Positions 12,749 to 22,843 of a stretch of 64,000 nt of DNA are shown here, one piece after another. The stretch's first letter is position 1; every line of letters starts with the position of its first letter. Origin of the DNA: Candidatus Latescibacterota bacterium (GTDB lineage Bacteria > Latescibacterota > UBA2968 > UBA8231); NCBI GenBank assembly GCA_029941565.1, contig JAPYRN010000001.1, forward strand, positions 97,255 through 161,254, in the 5' to 3' direction. Position numbers and translations under genes: made by a program. The notes under the pieces are model-generated. The model searched no databases. It saw only the letters and a list, made by a program, of their open reading frames with translations, and was not told the DNA's origin.

Positions 12749-12789
12749 CCGCCAGCTCTTCTCGATTGGAAGGGCTGGCGGTTTTTTTA
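12749..12789 (+). terminator. rho-independent terminator after the sigma factor gene
   Basis: CCGCCAGC / GCTGGCGG stem, 17-nt loop, then TTTTTTTA. Confidence 0.65.
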
Positions 12790-14094
12790 TCGCAGTCGCA
12801 GCCTCTGCGCCCGCATCTTCGAAAACGAGGCGAAGTGAATCGCCCAACCTGCCTCACCATAACCCACTTCCAGTCGCGTCATATCGACCGCCGGCAGCAG
12901 CAGGCGTAGACCAGCACCGACACCGATGCGCATGCGGCCGAGCTCGAAATCACGCCCGCGTGTCCAGGCGAGCCCACCGTCGGCAAACAGCGTGCCCCCA
13001 AGGCCTATATCGGCAGTCAGGCCGAATAGAGTGACCTCCGACGGCGCCACCAGCGGCACGCGATACTCCATCGTCGTCAACAGCTGTTGCTTGCCGAACA
13101 GGCTATGTCCCAGGTCGTCAACGGTGTAGCCACGCAGCGAGTTGGCTCCCCCGAGGTGATAGTCCATATACTGAGGCAGATCGCGGCCGACTCGACCCGA
13201 TTGCACCGAAAGCAGGCTCGCCAACACGAGGGTTTGCCCGGCGACGACGGGCTGGAAGCGGCGACTGTCGAGGTGTAGCGTCCAGAAATCCCCCTCACCC
13301 GGTATCACCCCTCCTGTCTTCCAAGTCTCCACTTCGGCCAACCAACCGACGGCGGGATTGGACCAGTCGTCGCGGGAATCGTAGCCGACGCTGCCACCGA
13401 TACGGAGCAGATCGTCCGTGTCTGTCGCTGATAGCGTGTGACCGGCAAGGTCCGATTCAAACCGCAGCAAGGAGACGGCCACCGACGCTCGGCCATGATC
13501 GCCGATCCACGTACCCAGTCTTGGCGTGAACTCCGTCGATCTCTCCTCAAAACCGTCGAACTCGTTCTGCCGAACGATACGCAACGCGTCGAGATCGAAA
13601 GAGACATGATCGCCGAACATCCACGGATGGGTCAGATCAAGGAGATAGCTGGTGCGACCCCCGAATAACGCATACCCCGCTAGAAAGATGTCTTTGCCAA
13701 AAAGATTTACCGATTTGACTGCCGGTCCGAAAGACCAGCCGTCCTGATCTGTAACATCGTAAGTGATATAGGGCACCACCGGTGGCAATTCCCGCAGGTG
13801 GTAGACGACGCGGACGGCTTCGCCGTCACTGACGAGTTCCACACGAACAGAGCTGAAAATGTCGAGATTCTGTAACCGCTGCACATCGGCGGTGAGCGTC
13901 GAGGGATCCAGCGGTTGACCCACGAGGGTGCGCAACTCGCGCATGATCACATGCGCTTGTGTGTAACGATTGCCAGACAGATCGATGTCTGCCACCCGAC
14001 GCCCCGCCAGATCGCCCTGGGTATCGCTGCCAGCGACCGGAGCAGCCGGCAGCAGCATGAGCGTACACCAAGTCCATAGAAAAAGCCGCCACAT
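12787..14094 (-). CDS. Omp85 (bacterial surface antigen / BamA-TamA-like) outer-membrane protein with single POTRA
   Basis: Signal peptide, then DLSGNRYTQAHVIMRELRTLVGQPLD (POTRA-like), then a long beta-rich C-terminal region typical of the Bac_surface_Ag barrel. 435 aa. Confidence 0.55.
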   Translation of the reverse strand: MWRLFLWTWCTLMLLPAAPVAGSDTQGDLAGRRVADIDLSGNRYTQAHVIMRELRTLVGQPLDPSTLTADVQRLQNLDIFSSVRVELVSDGEAVRVVYHLRELPPVVPYITYDVTDQDGWSFGPAVKSVNLFGKDIFLAGYALFGGRTSYLLDLTHPWMFGDHVSFDLDALRIVRQNEFDGFEERSTEFTPRLGTWIGDHGRASVAVSLLRFESDLAGHTLSATDTDDLLRIGGSVGYDSRDDWSNPAVGWLAEVETWKTGGVIPGEGDFWTLHLDSRRFQPVVAGQTLVLASLLSVQSGRVGRDLPQYMDYHLGGANSLRGYTVDDLGHSLFGKQQLLTTMEYRVPLVAPSEVTLFGLTADIGLGGTLFADGGLAWTRGRDFELGRMRIGVGAGLRLLLPAVDMTRLEVGYGEAGWAIHFASFSKMRAQRLRLR

Positions 14095-14637
14095 GCGTCA
14101 GGACGCGAGACGCCGTAGCGGCTGCAGATACTCAGCCGAGCAAGTCCAGAAGCTGTCCCGCGTCGGCGCCATCGTCTGCCTCCTGCGCGGCCCCAGTACC
14201 GGGTGCTTGTGCAACGCCCTCTTGTGTTTCGGTTTGCTCGCTGCTGCCGGTCCCGCTGCCAGCGACCTCGATCTTTTACTGCGACAACTCCCGACGCGCC
14301 TCCATCTCCATTGACTTCGCCTGTGAGGCGATACTACGATCCTGGCCAGATGGTTCGGGAGACTCAACACCGTGGCGCTCCAGCACCGATGCCGGCGGCA
14401 GCGTCGCACCGATGGCCGACAGTGGAGACAGTTGCTCTGCAAGGGTGAACGCCTCTTCGAGGCCGGGGACTACGCCAGGCACAGATGGCGCGACAGTTGA
14501 TCCCCCACCTGCTTGTGCAGGGAAACCAGCCTTCTGCAACAGCTGGGAACCGACTGTGGGATCTATGCGCAAGGCGATTGGGTCGCGACGTGAGAGGGAT
14601 GGCTTCTCCTCTTTTATCGGCCTCGCAGACCCGGACT

Positions 14638-15462
14638 TTAATGGCTCGGCGAAAAATTTTCGCTCGCACTGGTGAAAACGGTTTCCGGGAGTTCGTCATA
14701 GACAGCGATTTCCGTATGACGACTCTGGCCAAAATCATCGTTTAGGAGAATATCTCCATAGGCCTGCCAGTTGCCCCAGGGTCGGATGAAGCGGGGCTCT
14801 TCGTCGGCCGCTTCGCGATAGAATGACCACTGGCGCACGAGGCTCTTGTCGATATCTACCCACACCTGGTATCGGTTCTGTGGTGTGCGCCCCACGTCTC
14901 TGAACGTCAGGTCGAGGATATGGGCGGGCAAACCCTCCTCCGTCATGCCGTCCCCGACATATTTCAGAGTTACCCCTGAGTCCTTGAGTTTGTATGGCAT
15001 GACGAGCCAATAGGAATCATTGACCCAGGCGCTATATGCCTTTTGCAGTCTTGCCTCCAGGGTGTCCGGATCGGTGACCTCCACACCTGCCTCCCAGGCA
15101 CGACCACTCTGATCATGAATGTTCGACAGCACCGTCAGATCACCATCCTCCAAACGATGGTTGCCCATCCACTTGTCCCAGACGTGGCGACGACCACCAA
15201 AGAAGCGCCAGGTGATATACCTCGTTCCGTCCCACGCAGCACGACCGCCAAGACGGTCCATGACACGGTCCGCCAGTTCGATGGCGCGCCGGTCGGATCC
15301 GAGTTCATCGAATCCAGCAGCGGCGGGATTGCCAACAACCGGGGGCGCCGGCGCCACTGCACTCTCGCCCGCGGGCCTTGTTCTTGCGGCGATCTTCGGA
15401 CCGCACGCCATCGCACTCAGCACGAGGGCGGCGAGCATGAGGAAGCTGACGAGTCGGATCAT
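14638..15462 (-). CDS. secreted/lipoprotein-like hypothetical protein
   Basis: N-terminal signal MIRLVSFLMLAALVLSAMACG with a lipobox-like AMAC|G. No recognisable domain. Confidence 0.4.
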   Translation of the reverse strand: MIRLVSFLMLAALVLSAMACGPKIAARTRPAGESAVAPAPPVVGNPAAAGFDELGSDRRAIELADRVMDRLGGRAAWDGTRYITWRFFGGRRHVWDKWMGNHRLEDGDLTVLSNIHDQSGRAWEAGVEVTDPDTLEARLQKAYSAWVNDSYWLVMPYKLKDSGVTLKYVGDGMTEEGLPAHILDLTFRDVGRTPQNRYQVWVDIDKSLVRQWSFYREAADEEPRFIRPWGNWQAYGDILLNDDFGQSRHTEIAVYDELPETVFTSASENFSPSH

Positions 15463-15478
15463 GGTTTCGTCTCCACTT

Positions 15479-17365
15479 TCAGGCCATGCGTATGGACTTC
15501 ACGTCCTTCTTGCTCAGTTGTACGCCACTCGCCTTCGCCCCCTGTATGGGATATTCGCTGATCGGGAACTGCTCCTCGAGCACGCGCAGGCGTGTCGCCG
15601 GTTTGTACTCCAACTCCACTGTCGCTTCGTTGTCCAGAGTGAACTTGAGGAGCGTGGCGCCATCAGGGACAAGTGCATAGGCGCGATTGAGGATCAATCC
15701 CCCGACCTTACAACGTTTGATCTTAATCGCCCCCTTCTTATCGCGGAAGACGACATTGAAGACCTGCTCCTTGTCGGGAAAACCGCAATGCAACATACCC
15801 TTCCCGATAAACAACTTTTCGGGCGCATCGACCATCGAATACGTGCCATCCTTGCGGATCACGAGAATTCGATCATACAGTGACACCTCGGCGATATTCG
15901 TACCCACCACCTGGTGGCCCAGGTATCCAGTGGCCTTGTCGTAACACAACTTCTGATCCCGTTTGGCCGCCTCACGCACATCCACCTGCTCAAATGAGGT
16001 AATCTCCGTACGCCGAACAAAATCCTCCCGATTCTTCTCGATCAGCCTTTCCAGGTAGCTGATCGTAAAAGGGACGATCTCCTTGAGATCGTGGCGGATC
16101 TGCTTGAGCCGCGACTTCAGATCGCGCATGTCTTTCTTGGCGCGCTCGATGTCGTAGAGAGAGATCCGGCGAATTGGGATGCGTAGCAGTGTGTCCACAT
16201 CCTCCCGCGTAATCTCGCGCTTGATCTCCTTGTGGTGCTCCTTCAGGCCATCAAATACAGCCTGCACAACACCCTCCTGCGTCTTCTGTTCTTCGATCCT
16301 CTGGTAGATCCGTTGCTCGATGAAGATCTGCTCCAGCGTCCGGGCATGGATCCGGTCTTCGATCTCCCCTTCTTCGACACGCAACTGCGCCTTGAGGATA
16401 TCGACGAGACGATCGACGTTGTGCTCAAGCACCTCGGTGACGGTCATGATCCGCGGCATGTCCCCGTCGATGACGAGCAACGCCACGGAGATCGACATCT
16501 CACAATCGGTGAAGGCATAGAGGGAGTCGACCACGTCAGCTGCATAGATACCACGGGGCAGCTTGATTTCGATCTCGACACTTTCGGCGGTGAAGTCCTG
16601 GATGGCGGCAACCTTCACCTTGTTCTTCCGTGCTGCATCTTCGATGGAGCTGATCAACGCTTCCGTCGTCGTGCCGTAAGGAATCTCGGTGACGACAATG
16701 CGTTTCTCGTCCGACGTATCCAACTTTGCCCGCACAAGAATCTTGCCGTTGCCATCCTCGTAGTTCGACACATCAACCATGCCCCCCGTCGGAAAATCAG
16801 GGAACACGGCAAAAGACTCATCCCGCATGTATCCGACCTGCGCCTTGAGCAACTCGATCAGATTGTGGGGCATGATCTTCGTCGTCATCGTCGGCGCGAT
16901 ACCTTCCGCCCCCTGGGACAACAACAGCGGGATTCGCACGGGCAGAACCACCGGCTCCTTGTTCCGCCCATCATACGATTCGACATACTCGGTAACCTTC
17001 GGATCGAAGATCACCTCCCGCGCCATCGGACTCAGACGGCACTCGATATACCGCGCCGCCGACGCCATGTCTCCCGTATAGATGTTGCCGAAATTCCCCT
17101 GCCTATCGATGGCGACCTCTTTGTTGGCCAGAACGATCAGAGCAGAAAAAATCGACGCATCACCATGCGGGTGATACTTCATACACTGCCCGACGACATT
17201 GGCCACCTTGTGAAAGCGCTCGTCATCGAGCTCATGCAGCGTATGCAGAATACGCCGCTGAACCGGCTTCAACCCATCATCAAGATGCGGAATCGCCCGC
17301 TCCTTGATCGCATAGGACGAGTACTCGATGTAGTTCTTGTCATAAAGCTGTTTTATGAAAGCCAA
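15479..17365 (-). CDS. type IIA DNA topoisomerase subunit A (GyrA/ParC-like, short C-terminal domain)
   Basis: GLKPVQRRIL and ASAARYIECRL (active-site Tyr context AAMRYTE) are present. Only 628 aa, so most of the beta-pinwheel CTD is absent. TTG start. Confidence 0.8.
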   Translation of the reverse strand: MAFIKQLYDKNYIEYSSYAIKERAIPHLDDGLKPVQRRILHTLHELDDERFHKVANVVGQCMKYHPHGDASIFSALIVLANKEVAIDRQGNFGNIYTGDMASAARYIECRLSPMAREVIFDPKVTEYVESYDGRNKEPVVLPVRIPLLLSQGAEGIAPTMTTKIMPHNLIELLKAQVGYMRDESFAVFPDFPTGGMVDVSNYEDGNGKILVRAKLDTSDEKRIVVTEIPYGTTTEALISSIEDAARKNKVKVAAIQDFTAESVEIEIKLPRGIYAADVVDSLYAFTDCEMSISVALLVIDGDMPRIMTVTEVLEHNVDRLVDILKAQLRVEEGEIEDRIHARTLEQIFIEQRIYQRIEEQKTQEGVVQAVFDGLKEHHKEIKREITREDVDTLLRIPIRRISLYDIERAKKDMRDLKSRLKQIRHDLKEIVPFTISYLERLIEKNREDFVRRTEITSFEQVDVREAAKRDQKLCYDKATGYLGHQVVGTNIAEVSLYDRILVIRKDGTYSMVDAPEKLFIGKGMLHCGFPDKEQVFNVVFRDKKGAIKIKRCKVGGLILNRAYALVPDGATLLKFTLDNEATVELEYKPATRLRVLEEQFPISEYPIQGAKASGVQLSKKDVKSIRMA

Positions 17366-17612
17366 GGCAGATTCACTCTTTCAGATCCAAGTCCACCATC
17401 AGACCACTGACAGTCTTTCCCCACTCCAATGGGCCAAAATGTTGGCCCCACTATGGTCTCTGGGGGGGTTCGTCCCGCCGTGACCCCGTAGCGCTTTCAG
17501 TCGCCGAAAAGGAGCCACAGGGACGTGGCGACTGTCGTCGGAGCAACGCCGGGACGGCGTTGCGAGAATGAAGCGAAGGGGTCACGGCGGGACGACCCCT
17601 TCCACCAAAATC
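17366..17612 (-). promoter_or_regulatory. highly structured intergenic spacer between the topoisomerase B and A genes
   Basis: Contains perfect hairpins GGGCCAAAATGTTGGCCC, GTCGCC..GGCGAC and CAACGCCGGGACGGCGTTG. A ~20-nt long-range inverted repeat (GTTCGTCCCGCCGTGACCCC ... GGGGTCACGGCGGGACGACC) brackets ~90 nt. Confidence 0.4.
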
Positions 17613-19589
17613 TCACAACATGTTCTCCATGATATACTCACGTCGCTCAGGCGTATTCTTCCCCATATAGAATTCAAGCGTCTGCGGGACCTCCGACATC
17701 TTGTCGATGGCAACCTTTACGAGCTTGATATCCTCGCCGATGAATTGGGAGAACTCCTTCGGTGAGATTTCCCCGAGACCTTTGAAACGAGTCACCTCGG
17801 CGCCCTTCACCTTCTTCAATCCCGCGTCGCGCTCCTTCTCGGAATAGCAGTAGATGGTATCTCTCTTGTTGCGCACCCGGAACAGGGGCGTCTCCAGAAT
17901 GTACACGTGACCTGCCACCACCAGATCTTCGAAGTAGGTGAGAAAAAACGTGAGCAGCAGATTGCGAATGTGGAAACCATCGACATCCGCGTCGGTAGCC
18001 AGCACGACCCGGTTGTAGCGCAACCCGTCGATCCCCTCTTCGACGCCGAGAGCCATCATCAGATTGTACAACAGCTCATTCTTGTAGACCTCAGCCTTGC
18101 CCCGTCCGTAGGCATTCTGCGGTTTCCCCGTCATCACGAAGATGGCCTGCGTATTTGGATCGCGAGAAGAGACGATGGAACCTGCCGCCGATTGGCCCTC
18201 GGTGATAAATACCGTCGACTCATCGCCGCGCTTGCGATCGCCGAAGTGGTATTTGCAGTCGCGCAGATTCGGATTCTTGAATGCGATCTTCCGTGCGTTC
18301 TCCTTGGCCTCTTTCTTCACCGCATTGAGATCTTTGCGCAGCTTTTCGTTGTTGATGATGCGCTGTTCCAAACGCTTTGCCGCTTCGCGATTCTTGTGAA
18401 GGAAGTCGACGACGGCCTCTTTCACATCGTTGACGATCCAACCGCGCACATCGGTGTTACCAAGTTTGTTCTTGGTCTGCGACTCGAACACGGGTTCCTG
18501 CAACTTCACCGCTACGGCGCCGGCGATGCCGTCACGCACATCAACACCACCATAACTCTTGCGGTAGAACTCGTTCACCCCCTTGAGCATGCCCTCACGG
18601 AAAGCGGACTGGTGCGTGCCGCCGTCGGAGGTATACTGGCCATTGACGAAGGACCAGTAGGTCTCACCATACCCCTCGACATGGGTGAAGGCGAACTCGA
18701 GTCGTTCGCCGCGGAAGTGGGCCGGCGGGTAAGTCACCTTGGTATCGTCCGTGCCGACCTCCCGTTCCAGCAGATCGAGGAGACCGCGCTTTGATTCGTA
18801 TTTCTGTCCATTGAGGAACAGGGCGAGGCCACTGTTGAGACAGGCATAGTTCCACAGTCGCCGCTGCACGAACTCGATGTTGTATCCGTACTCGCCGAAG
18901 ATCTCGACATCAGGACGAAATTCGACGAGGGTGCCATCCGATTCGCCTGGGGCCTTGCCCTTCTTCGTCTCTTTGATCAGATCGCCGCGCTCGAACAATG
19001 CCTCGGCGTATTGCCCACCGCGATAGGAGACGACGCGGAATTTTTCGGACAGCGCATTCACCGCCTTGGTGCCGACACCGTTGAGACCGACGGAGAACTG
19101 GTAGACGTCGTCGTTGTACTTGGCTCCCGTGTTGATCACGGACACACACTCTACCAGCTTGCCAAGGGGTATACCGCTGCCGAAGTCACGCGCACGCACG
19201 TTGTTGCCATCGATCTCCACCTCAACTTTGCGGCCGTGCCCCGTGATGAATTCATCGATAGAGTTGTCGATTACCTCCTTGAGCAGCACGTAAATACCAT
19301 CATCGAGGTCACTGCCATCCCCAAGGCGACCGATATACATGCCGGTGCGCAGACGGATGTGCTCCAGCGACGACAGCGTCTTGACCTTGCTCTCGTCGTA
19401 GACACCGTTGCCATTCCGTTTGCTGGGAGCCTTGCCCTTGCGGGCTTTCACCGCCACCGTCTTCGGTGTATTCGCGGCAGCAGAGAACAAGTCGGTAGTC
19501 GTCGTCATCGTCTGATCACATCCATCGGAACGAGCCGGACGGCCTCCAGATAAATGGCAACCGCTCATCGGCGCAGATTTGGGATTCAA
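17613..19589 (-). CDS. type IIA DNA topoisomerase subunit B (GyrB/ParE-like)
   Basis: GHKL ATPase motif LLKEVIDNSIDE, Toprim VFITEGQSAAGS (EGDSAGG equivalent), 658 aa. The ~55-aa basic N-terminal extension is unusual. Confidence 0.8.
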   Translation of the reverse strand: MNPKSAPMSGCHLSGGRPARSDGCDQTMTTTTDLFSAAANTPKTVAVKARKGKAPSKRNGNGVYDESKVKTLSSLEHIRLRTGMYIGRLGDGSDLDDGIYVLLKEVIDNSIDEFITGHGRKVEVEIDGNNVRARDFGSGIPLGKLVECVSVINTGAKYNDDVYQFSVGLNGVGTKAVNALSEKFRVVSYRGGQYAEALFERGDLIKETKKGKAPGESDGTLVEFRPDVEIFGEYGYNIEFVQRRLWNYACLNSGLALFLNGQKYESKRGLLDLLEREVGTDDTKVTYPPAHFRGERLEFAFTHVEGYGETYWSFVNGQYTSDGGTHQSAFREGMLKGVNEFYRKSYGGVDVRDGIAGAVAVKLQEPVFESQTKNKLGNTDVRGWIVNDVKEAVVDFLHKNREAAKRLEQRIINNEKLRKDLNAVKKEAKENARKIAFKNPNLRDCKYHFGDRKRGDESTVFITEGQSAAGSIVSSRDPNTQAIFVMTGKPQNAYGRGKAEVYKNELLYNLMMALGVEEGIDGLRYNRVVLATDADVDGFHIRNLLLTFFLTYFEDLVVAGHVYILETPLFRVRNKRDTIYCYSEKERDAGLKKVKGAEVTRFKGLGEISPKEFSQFIGEDIKLVKVAIDKMSEVPQTLEFYMGKNTPERREYIMENML

Positions 19590-19792
19590 CTATGGTGATA
19601 CGAATACGGAATCGCCGCTTACCACCCTCGGTACATAGTAAGGGCGGGGGATTCGTTAACCACAAGGGAGAGTTGTCTGAGTGTTACGTCCAGCCACCTG
19701 GGGGGAGATTCGGTGACCTGCAGGCAAGATATGACCAACATGCGACCGGTGCCAGCGACATCTCGCGGCACCGGCCGTACTATACTAGCAGA

Positions 19793-21154
19793 TCAGCGTG
19801 ATCGTGCCCTCGAGGGCCCGCGGTGTGATTTCGCTCCATGCGCCTCCGGCCGCCGACCTGCCGGTGCGCCATTGCTCTTGCCCTGGGCCCCGGCCCGACG
19901 GCGTCCACCGCCGCTGCGTGCCTTCACATTGGTCAGATCAGGTTCGCGGCCACGCCATTCAGGGCTGATTTCCCGCACTTTCAGCAGACGCTTCAGATTT
20001 CCCAGATCGCGATCGGTGACCATCGTCATCGCCGTCCCTATGCGTCCCATACGACCGGTGCGGCCCGTGCGGTGCGCGTAAATTTCGGGATTGAAGGGAA
20101 AATCAAAGTTGATGACGTGCGTGACATGGGAGAAATCGAGTCCACGGCCAGCGACATCGGTGGCGATCATGAACTTGATCTTTCGATCCTTGAAGCGATC
20201 GAAGATTGAAATACGCCGATCCTGGTCGAGCCCGCCGTGGATGTATTCCGTATTGCGGAAGGTGCGCCGGAATGTTCGGTAGAGTTCGCCCCCTTTGTCT
20301 CGCGAATTGCAGAATACGATGACCTGATCGACACCCTCCTCTTCGCCGAGGAAGTCGAGCAGCCGCTGGGTGCGGTCACCCCGCACATGCAGAAAATGAT
20401 GCTGCAGCGAACTGGGCGCGCCCTGCTCCCGATTCAACACGATTTTGACCGGGTCAGTGAGATACTTCGAGGTGAGTTTCTCGATCTCAGGGGGCATCGT
20501 CGCCGAGAACAGCAACACCTGGTATTGCTGCAGCATGCAGGAGAGAATGAAGTCGACATCCTCGATGAACCCCATATCGAGCATCTCGTCCGCCTCATCG
20601 AGCACGACGGTGCGAACTTGCTGCATATCGATCTTTGTGTTCCAGATCAGGTCGATCAGGCGTCCCGGCGTGGCCACCAGGATATGGACCCCATGGTTGA
20701 GCTTGGCCTTCTGCACGCCGATGTCAAAGCCGCCAAATACGGCGAAAGGCACGACATCCGAATTCTTGGCGACATCGTCGATCTCCTGCACGTATTGCAG
20801 GGCCAGTTCGCGGGTGGGGACGAGGATCAGATGTTGGATGACACGATTCTCCGTGTCTGTCCGGTTCACCATCGGGATGGCACAGGCTGAGGTCTTGCCG
20901 GATCCGGTCTCGGCTAAGCCCACCACGTCGCGTCCTGCCAGAACGTGGGGGATGGCTTGCTCCTGGATGGGCGTCATGTCTTCGTAGCCCATCTCGGCAA
21001 GCCCGGATAGGATTTCGGGCTTTAGGTCGGTTTCGGTAAACTTCAAGTTGCGGGAATCCTCCGTGAGAGGTAGGTGGGTGAACGACTCGCTCGAACGTCC
21101 CGCGGCGTCATCGAGCGGGTACGGAGCGGGGAATGGAAGTACCTGCGACGTCAA
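19793..21154 (-). CDS. DEAD-box ATP-dependent RNA helicase with RG-rich C-terminal tail
   Basis: Q-motif TPIQ, Walker A AETGSGKT, DEAD (VLDEADEMLDMGF), SAT, HRTGRTGRMG. The C-terminus reads RSGGGRRRAGAQGKSNGAPAGRRPEAHGAK. Confidence 0.8.
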   Translation of the reverse strand: MTSQVLPFPAPYPLDDAAGRSSESFTHLPLTEDSRNLKFTETDLKPEILSGLAEMGYEDMTPIQEQAIPHVLAGRDVVGLAETGSGKTSACAIPMVNRTDTENRVIQHLILVPTRELALQYVQEIDDVAKNSDVVPFAVFGGFDIGVQKAKLNHGVHILVATPGRLIDLIWNTKIDMQQVRTVVLDEADEMLDMGFIEDVDFILSCMLQQYQVLLFSATMPPEIEKLTSKYLTDPVKIVLNREQGAPSSLQHHFLHVRGDRTQRLLDFLGEEEGVDQVIVFCNSRDKGGELYRTFRRTFRNTEYIHGGLDQDRRISIFDRFKDRKIKFMIATDVAGRGLDFSHVTHVINFDFPFNPEIYAHRTGRTGRMGRIGTAMTMVTDRDLGNLKRLLKVREISPEWRGREPDLTNVKARSGGGRRRAGAQGKSNGAPAGRRPEAHGAKSHRGPSRARSR

Positions 21155-21346
21155 GAAGCAGGTGTGGCGCGCCGCTTGGCGGATGGTAGGGCCAGCGGCA
21201 GGTAATGGGCTAAAGGTATGAATTTTCTGAAATTACGCAAACTATACATGGTCGTGATACGGTTCCATCGTTGCCGCATCCTGCCCTGTACCTATCTTAG
21301 AAATTTCCATATGTAATCGTCACTTACGTCATTTCCCAGGCCTTAC

Positions 21347-22843
21347 ATGATGTCCACCGTCCGAGTTCGAGTCGCGCCCTCGCCAACAGGCGCACCCCAT
21401 GTGGGCACCGCCTACATCGCCTTGTTCAATCTGGCCTTTGCACGCAAACATGGCGGCCAGATTCTGCTCCGCATCGAGGACACCGACCAGGTGCGCTCAA
21501 AACCGGAGCACGAAGAGCGACTGATCTCGGCCCTGCGCTGGCTTGGGCTTGAATGGGACGAGGGACCAGACATCGGCGGCGACACGGGGCCCTTTCGGCA
21601 GAGCGAGCGTCTCGATCTGTATCGGCCACATGCGCAGCAACTCGTCGATGCAGGACATGCCTACTATTCCTTCGCCACCGCCGCTGAATTGGCCCAGTGG
21701 CGCGCCAGCGGACAGTCTTCCGGTGTGCCGGCTCCCTTCGATGTGGAGCGCGACGCCGATCCGGCCCAGGCTCGTGAGCGGGCCGAAGCTGGCGAGGACC
21801 ACGTGATTCGCATGAAGATGCCACGCCAGGGCATCTGCATCGTCGACGACATGCTGCGCGACCCGATCTCGATCGACTATGCCGGACTCGACGACCAGGT
21901 CTTGCTCAAATCGGACGGTTTTCCCACCTACCATCTCGCCGTCGTCGTCGATGATCACCTTATGGGCATCACCCACGTGATCCGTGGCGAGGAGTGGATC
22001 AACTCCACACCCAAACACCTGCTGCTGTATGAGTGGTTCGGTTGGGAGGTCCCACAGCACGCCCATCTGCCCCTGTTGCTGAACACGGATCGTTCGAAAA
22101 TGTCGAAACGACGCAATCCGACATCGATCGACTACTATCGGCGCGCCGGCTATCTCCCCTCCGCCCTGCTCAACTACCTGGCATTGATGGCCTACCCGCC
22201 AAACAAGGCCGCCGATGGCACGGAGCAGGAAAAGGAGCCATTTGCCGATCTCGTCAACCGCTTCGACCTGCAGCGGATCAGCCTTGGGGGCTCCGTCTTC
22301 GATCCGGAGAAACTGAACTGGCTGAACGGGCGCTACCTGCGCGAAGAGTTGTCGCCGGACCAGTTATTGACGGCACTTCGGGAATGGGCGTTGAACGATG
22401 ATTTCCTTGCCCAGGTGCTGCCACTGATGCAACCACGCATGGAGACCCTGGGTGATTTCATGCCCAGGTGCGCTTTCTTCTTCAGCCGGCGTGTCGAAGC
22501 ACAGATCGAGGACCTGCTACCAAAGGGTCGGGAAGCGGCGGATGTGGCAGCCTTGTTGCAGACGGCGGTGTGGTCCCTGGAGAATGTCGCGCCCTGGCAG
22601 GCAGAGGCTGTCGAGGCGGCGATCAAACGAACGAGCGAGTTCTGGGACTGGCCGATCCGCGACGTTACACGACCACTCTACACTGCGATCATGGGTCAAC
22701 CCATGGGGCCACCGCTGTACGAATCGATCGTCCTGCTCAATGTGGATCTTACGCGAATGCGCCTGCTCGAGGCAATTGACACCCTCGGGGGTCTGTCGAA
22801 GAAAAAAGCCAGGAAATTGGAGAAGGATTGGGGCGGAGCCTGA
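21347..22843 (+). CDS. gltX: glutamate--tRNA ligase
   Basis: RVAPSPTGAPHVGTAY (HIGH-class motif), LRIEDTD, KMSKRRNP (KMSKS). 498 aa. Confidence 0.85.
   Translation: MMSTVRVRVAPSPTGAPHVGTAYIALFNLAFARKHGGQILLRIEDTDQVRSKPEHEERLISALRWLGLEWDEGPDIGGDTGPFRQSERLDLYRPHAQQLVDAGHAYYSFATAAELAQWRASGQSSGVPAPFDVERDADPAQARERAEAGEDHVIRMKMPRQGICIVDDMLRDPISIDYAGLDDQVLLKSDGFPTYHLAVVVDDHLMGITHVIRGEEWINSTPKHLLLYEWFGWEVPQHAHLPLLLNTDRSKMSKRRNPTSIDYYRRAGYLPSALLNYLALMAYPPNKAADGTEQEKEPFADLVNRFDLQRISLGGSVFDPEKLNWLNGRYLREELSPDQLLTALREWALNDDFLAQVLPLMQPRMETLGDFMPRCAFFFSRRVEAQIEDLLPKGREAADVAALLQTAVWSLENVAPWQAEAVEAAIKRTSEFWDWPIRDVTRPLYTAIMGQPMGPPLYESIVLLNVDLTRMRLLEAIDTLGGLSKKKARKLEKDWGGA

What the first reader, a model, noticed from the sequence alone, without database searches (positions are those of the whole stretch)
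15479..19589. Compact type IIA topoisomerase pair: 658-aa B subunit with basic N-terminal tail and 628-aa A subunit lacking most of the C-terminal DNA-wrapping domain
Both subunits carry the catalytic signatures (GHKL ATPase, Toprim, active-site Tyr in ASAARYIE). The A subunit stops about 100 aa after the breakage-reunion core, so the GyrA-box/beta-pinwheel that defines gyrase versus topo IV behaviour is mostly missing. The B subunit has a ~55-residue Lys/Arg-rich N-terminal extension not seen in canonical GyrB/ParE. This resembles non-canonical bacterial type II enzymes (TopoNM-like) or a eukaryote/phage-like architecture more than standard gyrase or topo IV.
Basis: partly seen in the sequence, partly recalled or inferred. 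Interest (0 to 1): 0.5.

Follow-up and report, generated by a model that had tools for sequence, protein, structure and literature searches.

The report
Ordinary short-form topoisomerase IV gene pair
The two genes encode the ParE and ParC subunits of a known, widespread "short" bacterial topoisomerase IV, so the compact size is normal for this lineage rather than a truncation or a phage- or eukaryote-like oddity.

Summary
Both ORFs are real and intact. The window comes from a Candidatus Latescibacterota MAG.

- **A subunit (15479-17365, minus strand, 628 aa).** It matches the curated NCBIfam equivalog NF007209 "DNA topoisomerase IV subunit A" end to end. More than 120 homologs are 628-638 aa. 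Three independent assemblies give the identical protein and stop codon.
- **B subunit.** It really starts at the ATG at 19508 and is 631 aa, not 658. Its N-terminal tail is 36 aa, basic, predicted disordered, and hypervariable among relatives.

Side observations:
- Many ParE tails begin with a conserved [Q/T]x[D/E][L/M][F/L] motif that resembles a sliding-clamp-binding motif.
- The 247-nt parE-parC spacer holds a covarying, single-copy structured RNA of ~160 nt with no Rfam match.

I could not test whether gyrase is encoded elsewhere in the genome.

The parts
15479..17365 (-). parC: topoisomerase IV subunit A, 628 aa, TTG start, short form
   Evidence: ORF. NF007209 equivalog matched end to end at 885.6 bits. 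120 homologs are 628-638 aa. The identical protein occurs in 3 independent assemblies. Relatives use a TTG or GTG start at the same position.
16079..17299 (-). Breakage-reunion core (PF00521, residues 23-429)
   Evidence: Pfam E = 2.3e-107. Solved GyrA/ParC structures align over residues 8-457.
17048..17050 (-). Catalytic Tyr106 codon, preceded by Arg105
   Evidence: 'AARY' begins at residue 103. R105 and Y106 are invariant in 22 homologs.
15482..16003 (-). C-terminal domain (residues 455-628): three-bladed, basic half beta-pinwheel with no GyrA box
17453..17613 (-). Conserved structured RNA-like element in the parE-parC spacer: a long closing helix around three inner helices
   Evidence: MFE -121.6 kcal/mol, z = -5.06. 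50 pairs, 16 with compensatory changes, 94% of cells paired against 36-44% in the slid controls. Covariance-model hit of 185 bits on the minus strand against 39 bits on the plus strand, and single copy in the window. No Rfam match.
17613..19508 (-). parE: topoisomerase IV subunit B, 631 aa from the ATG at 19508 (stop at 17613-17615)
   Evidence: Pfam HATPase_c, DNA_gyraseB, Toprim and GyrB_C. Gene calls of 631 aa. An in-frame stop lies upstream of the same start in L084.
19509..19589 (-). Upstream 27 codons of the longest ORF, most likely not translated
   Evidence: Relatives start at 'MTTT'. L084 and L086 have in-frame stops in this stretch.
19401..19508 (-). ParE N-terminal tail (residues 1-36): 'MTTTTDLF' motif followed by a basic low-complexity linker
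   Evidence: 7 K/R, 1 D/E, pI 11.2. pLDDT about 27-33 across these residues (below 50 through residue 45), so predicted disordered. Tail length and motif survey.
18969..19301 (-). GHKL ATPase domain (EVIDNSIDE, DFGSGIP and GLNGVG boxes)
   Evidence: Pfam PF02518. Motif positions.
17892..18215 (-). Toprim domain (E437 in 'EGQSA', D506xD508 in 'DADVDG')
   Evidence: Pfam PF01751. Motif positions.

Best explanation
The two genes encode ParE (631 aa) and ParC (628 aa) of an ATP-dependent, heterotetrameric type IIA topoisomerase. It belongs to the 'short ParC' topoisomerase IV family (NCBIfam NF007209) found in FCB-group, PVC-group and spirochaete lineages. The host here is a Candidatus Latescibacterota bacterium.

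**Shown here.**
- The domain architecture is complete: GHKL, transducer and Toprim in ParE; winged-helix/tower/coiled-coil core in ParC.
- The catalytic residues are present: Arg105-Tyr106 in ParC, the Toprim Glu and DxD, the ATP-binding boxes and the QTK loop in ParE.
- The ParC CTD is a basic three-blade half beta-pinwheel without a GyrA box.
- ParC length and stop position are conserved across phyla.
- The gltX - DEAD-box helicase - parE - parC gene order is conserved in relatives.

**Inferred from established knowledge of the family.**
- The enzyme cleaves a G-segment with Tyr106 and Mg2+ and passes a T-segment through the ATP-closed N-gate.
- Because it lacks the GyrA box and a closed six-blade wrap, it cannot introduce negative supercoils.
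- It therefore acts as a decatenase/relaxase alongside a separately encoded gyrase.

The 36-aa disordered basic ParE tail is lineage-specific. It most likely adds DNA or partner affinity near the N-gate. This last point is speculative.
For: - **Family membership.** NF007209 is matched end to end above its cut-off. Treponema and Waddliaceae short forms hit the same model, and the Chryseobacterium long form hits NF009397.
- **Homologs.** 120 homologs are 628-638 aa, are named topoisomerase IV subunit A, and include a 100%-identical NCBI protein from a Latescibacteria MAG. ParE homologs are named topoisomerase IV subunit B.
- **Gene arrangement.** Among the fetched related loci where parE was found, it always lies upstream of parC on the same strand, and in many it is directly adjacent.
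- **CTD fold.**
- **Catalytic motifs.**
[quoted passage not shown] Cultured Bacteroidetes, spirochaetes and Chlamydia, phyla in which this ParC family was found here, have gyrA and gyrB at separate loci (PMC8359277).
- **Context.** The flanks are housekeeping genes and GC content is even, so this is not a mobile element.
Against: - I found no biochemical characterisation of any member of this family in the searched literature. 'Topo IV' is an annotation, not a tested activity.
- HMM scores place the A subunit no closer to canonical ParC (190-215 bits) than to GyrA (245-253 bits).
- ParE passes no NCBIfam cut-off.
- Whether this genome encodes gyrase could not be checked. No second type IIA gene lies in the 64-kb window.
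- It is unknown whether three blades are enough for the chirality sensing typical of topo IV.
Confidence: 0.85

Rival explanations
1. The pair is a generic, chirality-blind ATP-dependent relaxase that behaves like eukaryotic topo II. It would not be a topo IV-like enzyme that prefers positive supercoils and catenanes, because half the CTD is missing.
For: Only three blades remain. In E. coli ParC, different blades handle different substrates, with blades 4 and 5 among the main DNA-binding sites (PMC8216471).
Against: The retained module is basic (pI 9.2). It is strongly conserved across phyla, which points to a selected DNA-binding role. There are no activity data either way.
Confidence: 0.1
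2. The short A subunit is an artefact: a frameshift, assembly error or pseudogene hides a longer CTD.
For: None. One other assembly (L081) does split parE by a frameshift, so errors do occur in these MAGs.
Against: Three independent assemblies give the identical 628-aa protein and stop. A separate 274-aa gene starts 17 nt downstream. Relatives with a different downstream gene (peptidase M3) stop at the same residue. The curated family profile is 635 positions long.
Confidence: 0.01
3. The pair is a horizontally acquired atypical type II enzyme, either TopoNM-like or derived from phage or eukaryotic topo II.
For: It diverges from the canonical ParC/GyrA models. Weak similarity to T4 gp52 and gp39 exists.
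Against: Bacterial GyrA/ParC match at E ~1e-55 over the whole core, against 6e-22 for T4 gp52 (residues 4-245) and about 1e-15 for eukaryotic topo II (residues 15-235) over part of it. The best 'phage' records are unannotated 4-5-kb faecal contigs at 41% identity, the same level as Bacteroidales parC. Annotated phage hits cover only the core at ~30%. Synteny with housekeeping genes is conserved, GC is even, and inheritance looks vertical across phyla.
Confidence: 0.03
4. The pair is the organism's only type IIA topoisomerase and substitutes for gyrase.
For: No gyrA or gyrB lies in the 64-kb window. Aquifex shows that a single type IIA enzyme with topo IV activity can exist (PMC8216471).
Against: Gyrase is reported as present in all bacteria with one exception. 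Cultured members of phyla carrying this family have gyrA and gyrB. A 64-kb window is about 1-2% of a genome.
Confidence: 0.02

Closest known systems
NCBIfam NF007209 (PRK09631), DNA topoisomerase IV subunit A, short form (e.g. Treponema lecithinolyticum, Waddliaceae)
   Same: End-to-end match above the cut-off, the same ~630-aa length, the same three-blade CTD module, and parE upstream.
   Different: Nothing architectural. Identity is 45-56% to members from other phyla.
NCBIfam NF009397 (PRK12758), Bacteroidota ParC, about 820-960 aa
   Same: The core and the first CTD module are collinear with the window protein (residues 4-627, ~40-43% identity).
   Different: The Bacteroidota proteins carry a second tandem copy of the ~160-aa three-blade module at roughly residues 645-805 (independent E-value down to 1e-15 against the short-form CTD profile). 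The window protein scores 692 bits, below the 780 cut-off.
Canonical ParC (E. coli 1ZVU/1ZVT, five blades; B. stearothermophilus 1WP5, six blades) and ParE
   Same: The breakage-reunion core, a beta-pinwheel CTD without a GyrA box, and a two-subunit organisation.
   Different: Only ~3 blades. CTD sequence similarity is undetectable. Scores are far below the TIGR01062 and TIGR01061 cut-offs. ParE has an extra disordered basic N-terminal tail.
DNA gyrase GyrA/GyrB
   Different: No GyrA box, half the blades, no acidic C-terminal tail. Below the TIGR01063 and TIGR01059 cut-offs.
Chlamydia-type ParC without a CTD (NF007208/PRK09630, 479 aa)
   Same: The same divergent core: residues 3-462 align to profile positions 3-469 of 479.
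   Different: The window protein keeps a three-blade CTD and scores 454 bits, below the 598 cut-off.
Phage T4 topo II (gp39/gp52/gp60), eukaryotic topo II, and M. smegmatis TopoNM
   Same: The shared type IIA catalytic core.
   Different: Much weaker matches, and only to part of the core. TopoNM could not be compared.

Membership tests
Type IIA topoisomerase, A subunit | PF00521 breakage-reunion domain with a catalytic Tyr preceded by Arg | tested here: met
   PF00521 at E = 2.3e-107. R105 and Y106 are invariant.
Type IIA topoisomerase, B subunit | GHKL ATP-binding boxes, the QTK loop, and the Toprim Glu and DxD | tested here: met
   Four Pfam domains. EVIDNSIDE, DFGSGIP, GLNGVG, QTKNK, EGQSA and DADVDG are all found and lie in invariant columns.
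NCBIfam NF007209 short ParC (topo IV subunit A) | Whole-protein score above the curated cut-off, with end-to-end coverage | tested here: met
   885.6 bits against a cut-off of 644. Residues 3-627 align to profile positions 3-633 of 635.
NCBIfam NF009397 Bacteroidota long ParC | Score of at least 780 bits and the second CTD module | tested here: not met
   692.6 bits, covering profile positions 23-658 of 870 only. There is one CTD module, not two.
DNA gyrase (GyrA) | GyrA box Q(R/K)RGG(R/K)G in blade 1 | tested here: not met
   Neither a strict nor a loose regular expression finds one.
DNA gyrase (GyrA) | Six-bladed closed beta-pinwheel, and a TIGR01063 score above the cut-off | tested here: not met
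   About 3 blades. 245.5 bits against a cut-off of 877.
Canonical topo IV ParC (TIGR01062 Gram-negative, TIGR01061 Gram-positive) | Equivalog score above the cut-off | tested here: not met
   189.8 bits against 628.9, and 215.2 bits against 813.
Canonical ParE/GyrB equivalogs (TIGR01055, TIGR01058, TIGR01059) | Equivalog score above the cut-off | tested here: not met
   292, 326 and 380 bits, all below their cut-offs. NCBI names close homologs 'topoisomerase IV subunit B' or 'type IIA DNA topoisomerase subunit B'.
Topoisomerase IV (functional definition) | ATP-dependent decatenation and relaxation, with no negative supercoiling | not testable with these tools
   Requires an enzyme assay. Inferred only from the absence of the GyrA box and from paralogy.
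Topoisomerase IV (genomic definition) | Coexists with a separate gyrase in the same genome | not testable with these tools
   No second type IIA gene in the window.
TopoNM (M. smegmatis atypical topo II) | Orthology to TopoN/TopoM | not tested
   No TopoNM sequence was available in the tools. The review searched does not mention it.
Phage or eukaryotic topo II | Closer to T4 gp52/gp39 or eukaryotic topo II than to bacterial enzymes | tested here: not met
   E = 6e-22 for T4 gp52 and about 1e-15 for eukaryotic topo II over part of the core, against ~1e-55 over the whole core for bacterial enzymes. gp39 matches at 2.5e-32 against 4e-76 for GyrB.
Beta-clamp-binding motif (for the ParE tail) | Q-phi-x-[L/M]-[F/L] in a disordered region, plus demonstrated clamp binding | tested here: inconclusive
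   26 of 118 homologs have Q.[DE][LM][FL] near the N-terminus, including QADMF and QLDLL. The window copy is TTDLF, with no Gln and no aliphatic residue at the phi position. The consensus is taken from PMC13254535. The tail is predicted disordered. Binding was not testable.

The most novel reading that the evidence does not exclude
The disordered N-terminal tail of ParE in this Latescibacterota/Gemmatimonadota clade may be a functional tether. It would combine an N-terminal sliding-clamp-binding-type motif ([Q/T]x[D/E][L/M][F/L], for example QADMF, QPDLF or QLDLL, and TTDLF in the window) with a variable basic linker. Together these would recruit a topo IV with a minimal CTD to the replisome or to DNA. 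Alongside this, a covarying ~160-nt RNA structure between parE and parC may tune the relative expression of the two subunits. Neither feature has been described for topoisomerase IV in the literature I could search.
Probability: 0.12. Interest if true: 0.6.

Novelty: already known. Interest (0 to 1): 0.2.

Why it matters
The main finding matters little. It is a correctly annotatable topo IV pair from a curated family, and variation in ParC CTD blade number from 0 to 8 is textbook.

Some modest points could guide experiments.
- No member of this divergent FCB/PVC/spirochaete ParC family seems to have been characterised biochemically.
- The three-blade module, which is duplicated in Bacteroidota, is a natural minimal CTD. 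It could be used to ask how many blades topo IV needs to discriminate between substrates.
- The ParE tail motif and the structured parE-parC spacer are untested leads on how topo IV is recruited and how the two subunits are balanced.

Tried and rejected
- **Sequence searches on the CTD.** A profile search of the CTD against PDB sequences found nothing meaningful. Pfam PF03989 reached only E = 0.031, and it does not hit the Bacteroidota extensions either. The fold had to be established by structure.
- **Literature.** Three searches for this specific ParC clade returned only general reviews. A search for a topo IV / sliding-clamp link found no such report.
- **Libraries and scans.** The afdb50 fold library was unavailable. 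The representative-library search returned mostly fragments and added only a rough family size: 699 clusters at E <= 1e-3. The metagenome scan for the spacer RNA core gave only 3 loci, 2 of them new and close relatives.
- **Rfam.** No match for the spacer.
- **ParE model.** AF2 of full-length ParE was mediocre (pLDDT 68.9). It showed only that the tail is disordered and does not dock onto the protein.
- **Phage search.** The top hits are unannotated faecal 'Bacteriophage sp.' fragments that look like Bacteroidales parC, so they are not evidence of phage origin.
- **Gyrase elsewhere in the genome.** This could not be tested.
- **Reference phylogeny.** None was built, because GyrA, ParC and TopoNM reference sequences were not retrievable in bulk. 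HMM and PDB scores were used as a proxy instead.


Full report
**Observation**

The ORF listing confirms two adjacent minus-strand ORFs: 15479-17365 (628 aa, TTG start) and 17613-19589 (658 aa as the longest ORF).

Pfam finds PF00521 at residues 23-429 of the A ORF. In the B ORF it finds HATPase_c, DNA_gyraseB, Toprim and DNA_gyraseB_C.

The catalytic signatures are all present.
- The A subunit has Arg105-Tyr106 in 'ASAARYIE'.
- The B subunit has the GHKL boxes EVIDNSIDE, DFGSGIP and GLNGVG, the QTK loop, the Toprim Glu in 'EGQSA', and 'DADVDG'.
- These residues are invariant among homologs.

No second type IIA gene lies in the 64-kb window. GC content is even across the region.

**Identity**

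The A subunit matches the NCBIfam equivalog NF007209 (PRK09631, 'DNA topoisomerase IV subunit A') at 885.6 bits against a cut-off of 644. The match is end to end: residues 3-627 on profile positions 3-633 of 635.

All gyrase and canonical ParC models fall far below their cut-offs. gyrA scores 245-253 bits, parC_Gpos 215 and parC_Gneg 190.

A search of 5.8 billion proteins returns a 100%-identical protein named 'DNA topoisomerase IV subunit A [Candidatus Latescibacteria bacterium]'. Of the 120 best hits, 118 are 628-638 aa and two are truncated fragments. They come from Latescibacterota, Gemmatimonadota and Chitinispirillia.

A scan of one genome per GTDB species finds the same protein, collinear over residues 1-627, in many groups:
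- Latescibacterota, Gemmatimonadota, Treponema and other spirochaetes;
- Verrucomicrobiota, Waddliaceae, Sedimentisphaerales and Kiritimatiellia;
- a Thermodesulfobacteriota MAG;
- Bacteroidota, where it carries an extension.

Treponema and Waddliaceae proteins hit NF007209. A Chryseobacterium protein hits NF009397.

So the length is normal for a curated, multi-phylum family.

**Not a truncation**

- Three independent assemblies (NCBI GCA_029936015.1, GCA_029936055.1 and a Logan assembly) carry the identical 628-aa gene followed by the same 274-aa gene. In the window that gene starts 17 nt after the parC stop.
- Relatives at 85-90% identity have a different downstream gene (peptidase M3) yet stop at the same residue.

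**What the C-terminus is**

The breakage-reunion core ends at about residue 460, because solved GyrA/ParC N-terminal domains align up to residue 457.

Residues 455-628 have no significant sequence match to any PDB chain, even as a profile. The Pfam blade model PF03989 reaches only E = 0.031.

AlphaFold2 on a 29-sequence alignment gives a confident all-beta model: pLDDT 88.6, pTM 0.79, 13 strands.
- The top 17 Foldseek hits are the same fold, led by full-length E. coli ParC.

Thirteen strands, and about half the residues of a six-blade CTD aligned, mean about three blades.

The domain is basic (pI 9.2), has no GyrA box, and has no C-terminal tail.

About half a pinwheel is retained and strongly conserved.

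**The Bacteroidota long form**

A profile of the short CTD matches Bacteroidota ParC twice. The first match is at about residues 455-635. The second is in register at about residues 645-805, with independent E-values down to 1e-15. Two-stretch hits in the representative library agree.

The long form is therefore a tandem duplication of the three-blade module. The alternative is that the short form is a half-deletion.

The two copies recognise each other by sequence, while canonical CTDs do not. The short form also spans many more phyla. Both points make a duplication in Bacteroidota the more likely direction. This is an inference.

**The B subunit**

Homology to GyrB/ParE begins at ORF residue ~61-64.

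Gene calls on identical or 99%-identical DNA give 631 aa, starting at the ATG at 19508. In relative L084 an in-frame stop lies 8 codons upstream of the conserved 'MTTT' start, and L086 also has upstream stops. The first 27 codons of the 658-aa ORF are therefore most likely untranslated.

The real tail is 36 aa: MTTTTDLFSAAANTPKTVAVKARKGKAPSKRNGNGV. It has 7 K/R, 1 D/E and pI 11.2. AlphaFold predicts it disordered, with pLDDT about 27-33 over these residues, and it does not dock on the ATPase domain.

Among 118 ParE homologs the tail ranges from almost nothing to ~100 aa of N/G/K/R-rich low-complexity sequence.

ParE passes no NCBIfam equivalog cut-off. It is equidistant from solved GyrB and Gram-positive ParE (E ~1e-76 to 1e-74), with T4 gp39 at 2.5e-32.

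**Phage, eukaryote or TopoNM affinity**

- T4 gp52 matches only residues 4-245 at E = 6e-22, and eukaryotic topo II matches at ~1e-15. Bacterial enzymes match at ~1e-55 across the whole core.
- In the phage collection, the only near-full-length hits are unannotated 4-5-kb faecal 'Bacteriophage sp.' contigs at ~41% identity. That is the same level as Bacteroidales parC. Annotated phage genes cover only the core at ~30%.
- Flanking genes are housekeeping: gltX, a DEAD-box helicase, an Omp85/POTRA protein, a sigma-70 factor and an RF-1-domain protein. The order gltX - DEAD - parE - parC is conserved in relatives.
- TopoNM could not be compared.

**Mechanism**

From established type IIA enzymology, summarised in PMC8216471:
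- ParE dimerises on ATP to close the N-gate.
- ParC Tyr106 and the ParE Toprim/Mg2+ site cleave the G-segment.
- A T-segment is then passed through the break.

Negative supercoiling requires the GyrA box and a DNA wrap around a closed six-blade CTD. Both are absent here, so a decatenase/relaxase (topo IV-like) activity is inferred.

The same review states two further points. ParC CTDs range from zero blades in Chlamydia to eight in Clostridium. Gyrase is essentially universal, while topo IV is an optional paralog.

Cultured Bacteroidetes, spirochaetes and Chlamydia, phyla in which this ParC family was found here, have separate gyrA and gyrB genes (PMC8359277).

I could not check for gyrase in this MAG. 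No enzyme of this family appears to have been assayed in the literature I could search.

**Side observation 1: a motif at the ParE N-terminus**

Although the linker is unalignable, 35 of 118 ParE homologs keep a short motif within the first ~20 residues.
- 26 have Q.[DE][LM][FL], for example QPDLF, QNDLF, QSDLF, QADMF and QLDLL.
- 9 more, including the window's near-identical homolog, have T[TPSA]DLF or a related DLF (TTDLF in the window).

A Gemmatimonadota genome has QLDLL. Some Chitinophagales and Cytophagales ParE proteins have KDLF or SNLF directly before the conserved Tyr arm.

The motif resembles the beta-clamp-binding consensus QL[S/D]LF, or Q-phi-x-[L/M][F/L] (PMC13254535). QADMF is identical to the internal Pol III alpha motif cited there.

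The second position is usually not aliphatic, however, and the window copy lacks the Gln. I found no report of a topo IV / clamp link. I rate this a lead with a probability of about 0.1.

**Side observation 2: a structured spacer**

The 247-nt parE-parC spacer folds far better than shuffled sequence (-121.6 kcal/mol, z = -5.06).

Five distinct relatives share a highly conserved core closed by a 21-bp helix whose sequence differs between species while staying complementary.
- There are 50 pairs in total, 16 of them with compensatory changes.
- 94% of cells are paired, against 36-44% when the partners are slid.
- 0 of 500 shuffles reach the observed values.

A covariance model finds the element once in the window, at 17453-17613, scoring 185 bits on the minus strand against 39 bits on the plus strand. 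In relatives it is found only between parE and parC. Two relatives keep only the inner hairpins. Relatives whose parE and parC abut lack it altogether.

One very close relative (L093) has three non-compensated changes in the closing helix, so the constraint is not absolute.

There is no Rfam match. The function is unknown. An RNase III processing site or a translational control element that balances ParC (TTG/GTG start) against ParE (ATG start) is the most natural guess.

**Verdict**

The finding is a real but ordinary gene pair from a known family, already annotated as such in public records. The compactness is lineage-normal. The B-subunit tail is shorter than claimed. The CTD is a retained three-blade half pinwheel. 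Interest is low, and the two side observations are the only parts that might repay further work.

Noticed in passing
window 17453-17613 (minus strand), within the 247-nt parE-parC spacer 17366-17612: A conserved, single-copy structured RNA-like element with a covarying 21-bp closing helix around three invariant inner helices. Folding z-score is -5.06; 16 of 50 pairs show compensatory changes; there is no Rfam match. In relatives it is found only between parE and parC, and it is absent where the two genes abut.
   Followed up: yes
window 19401-19508 (minus strand); ParE homologs P0121-P0240; loci L002, L028, L053, L062, L073: The hypervariable basic ParE tails often begin with a conserved [Q/T]x[D/E][L/M][F/L] motif (QPDLF, QADMF, QLDLL; TTDLF in the window). 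It resembles a beta-clamp-binding motif. The tail is predicted disordered.
   Followed up: partly
loci L014-L080 (Bacteroidota parC), roughly residues 645-805 of each protein: The ~200-aa C-terminal extension of Bacteroidota ParC (NF009397) is a second tandem copy of the same three-blade CTD module that ends the short form (independent E-value down to 1e-15). Pfam's blade model does not detect either copy.
   Followed up: partly
window parC residues 65-77 (YHPHGDASIFSAL) and parE residues 437-463 (EGQSA ... MTGKPQN): The residues at the classical quinolone-resistance positions differ from sensitive enzymes. The GyrA Ser83 and Asp87 equivalents are Ala and Ser. The GyrB Asp426 and Lys447 equivalents are Gln and Thr. 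This suggests intrinsically low fluoroquinolone sensitivity. It is an inference from sequence and general knowledge.
   Followed up: no
window 17363-17365; L084, L094: parC starts with TTG in the window and in L084, and with GTG in L094, whereas parE starts with ATG. This may matter for subunit stoichiometry, together with the structured spacer.
   Followed up: no
L081 5064-6959 (NCBI GCA_029936015.1): In this public assembly of the same organism, parE is split into 524-aa and 97-aa genes by an apparent frameshift. The window and the Logan assembly have it intact.
   Followed up: no
phage collection records MT839023.1, MT838716.1, MT839257.1 and others: Unannotated 4-5-kb 'Bacteriophage sp.' contigs from human faeces encode near-full-length parC at ~41% identity to the window protein. 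They are probably Bacteroidales chromosomal fragments misfiled as phage.
   Followed up: no
window 12787-22843; L084, L086, L088-L091: The gene order gltX (divergent) - DEAD-box helicase - parE - parC is conserved in relatives. The gene after parC varies: a 274-aa putative lipoprotein in the window and a peptidase M3 in relatives.
   Followed up: partly
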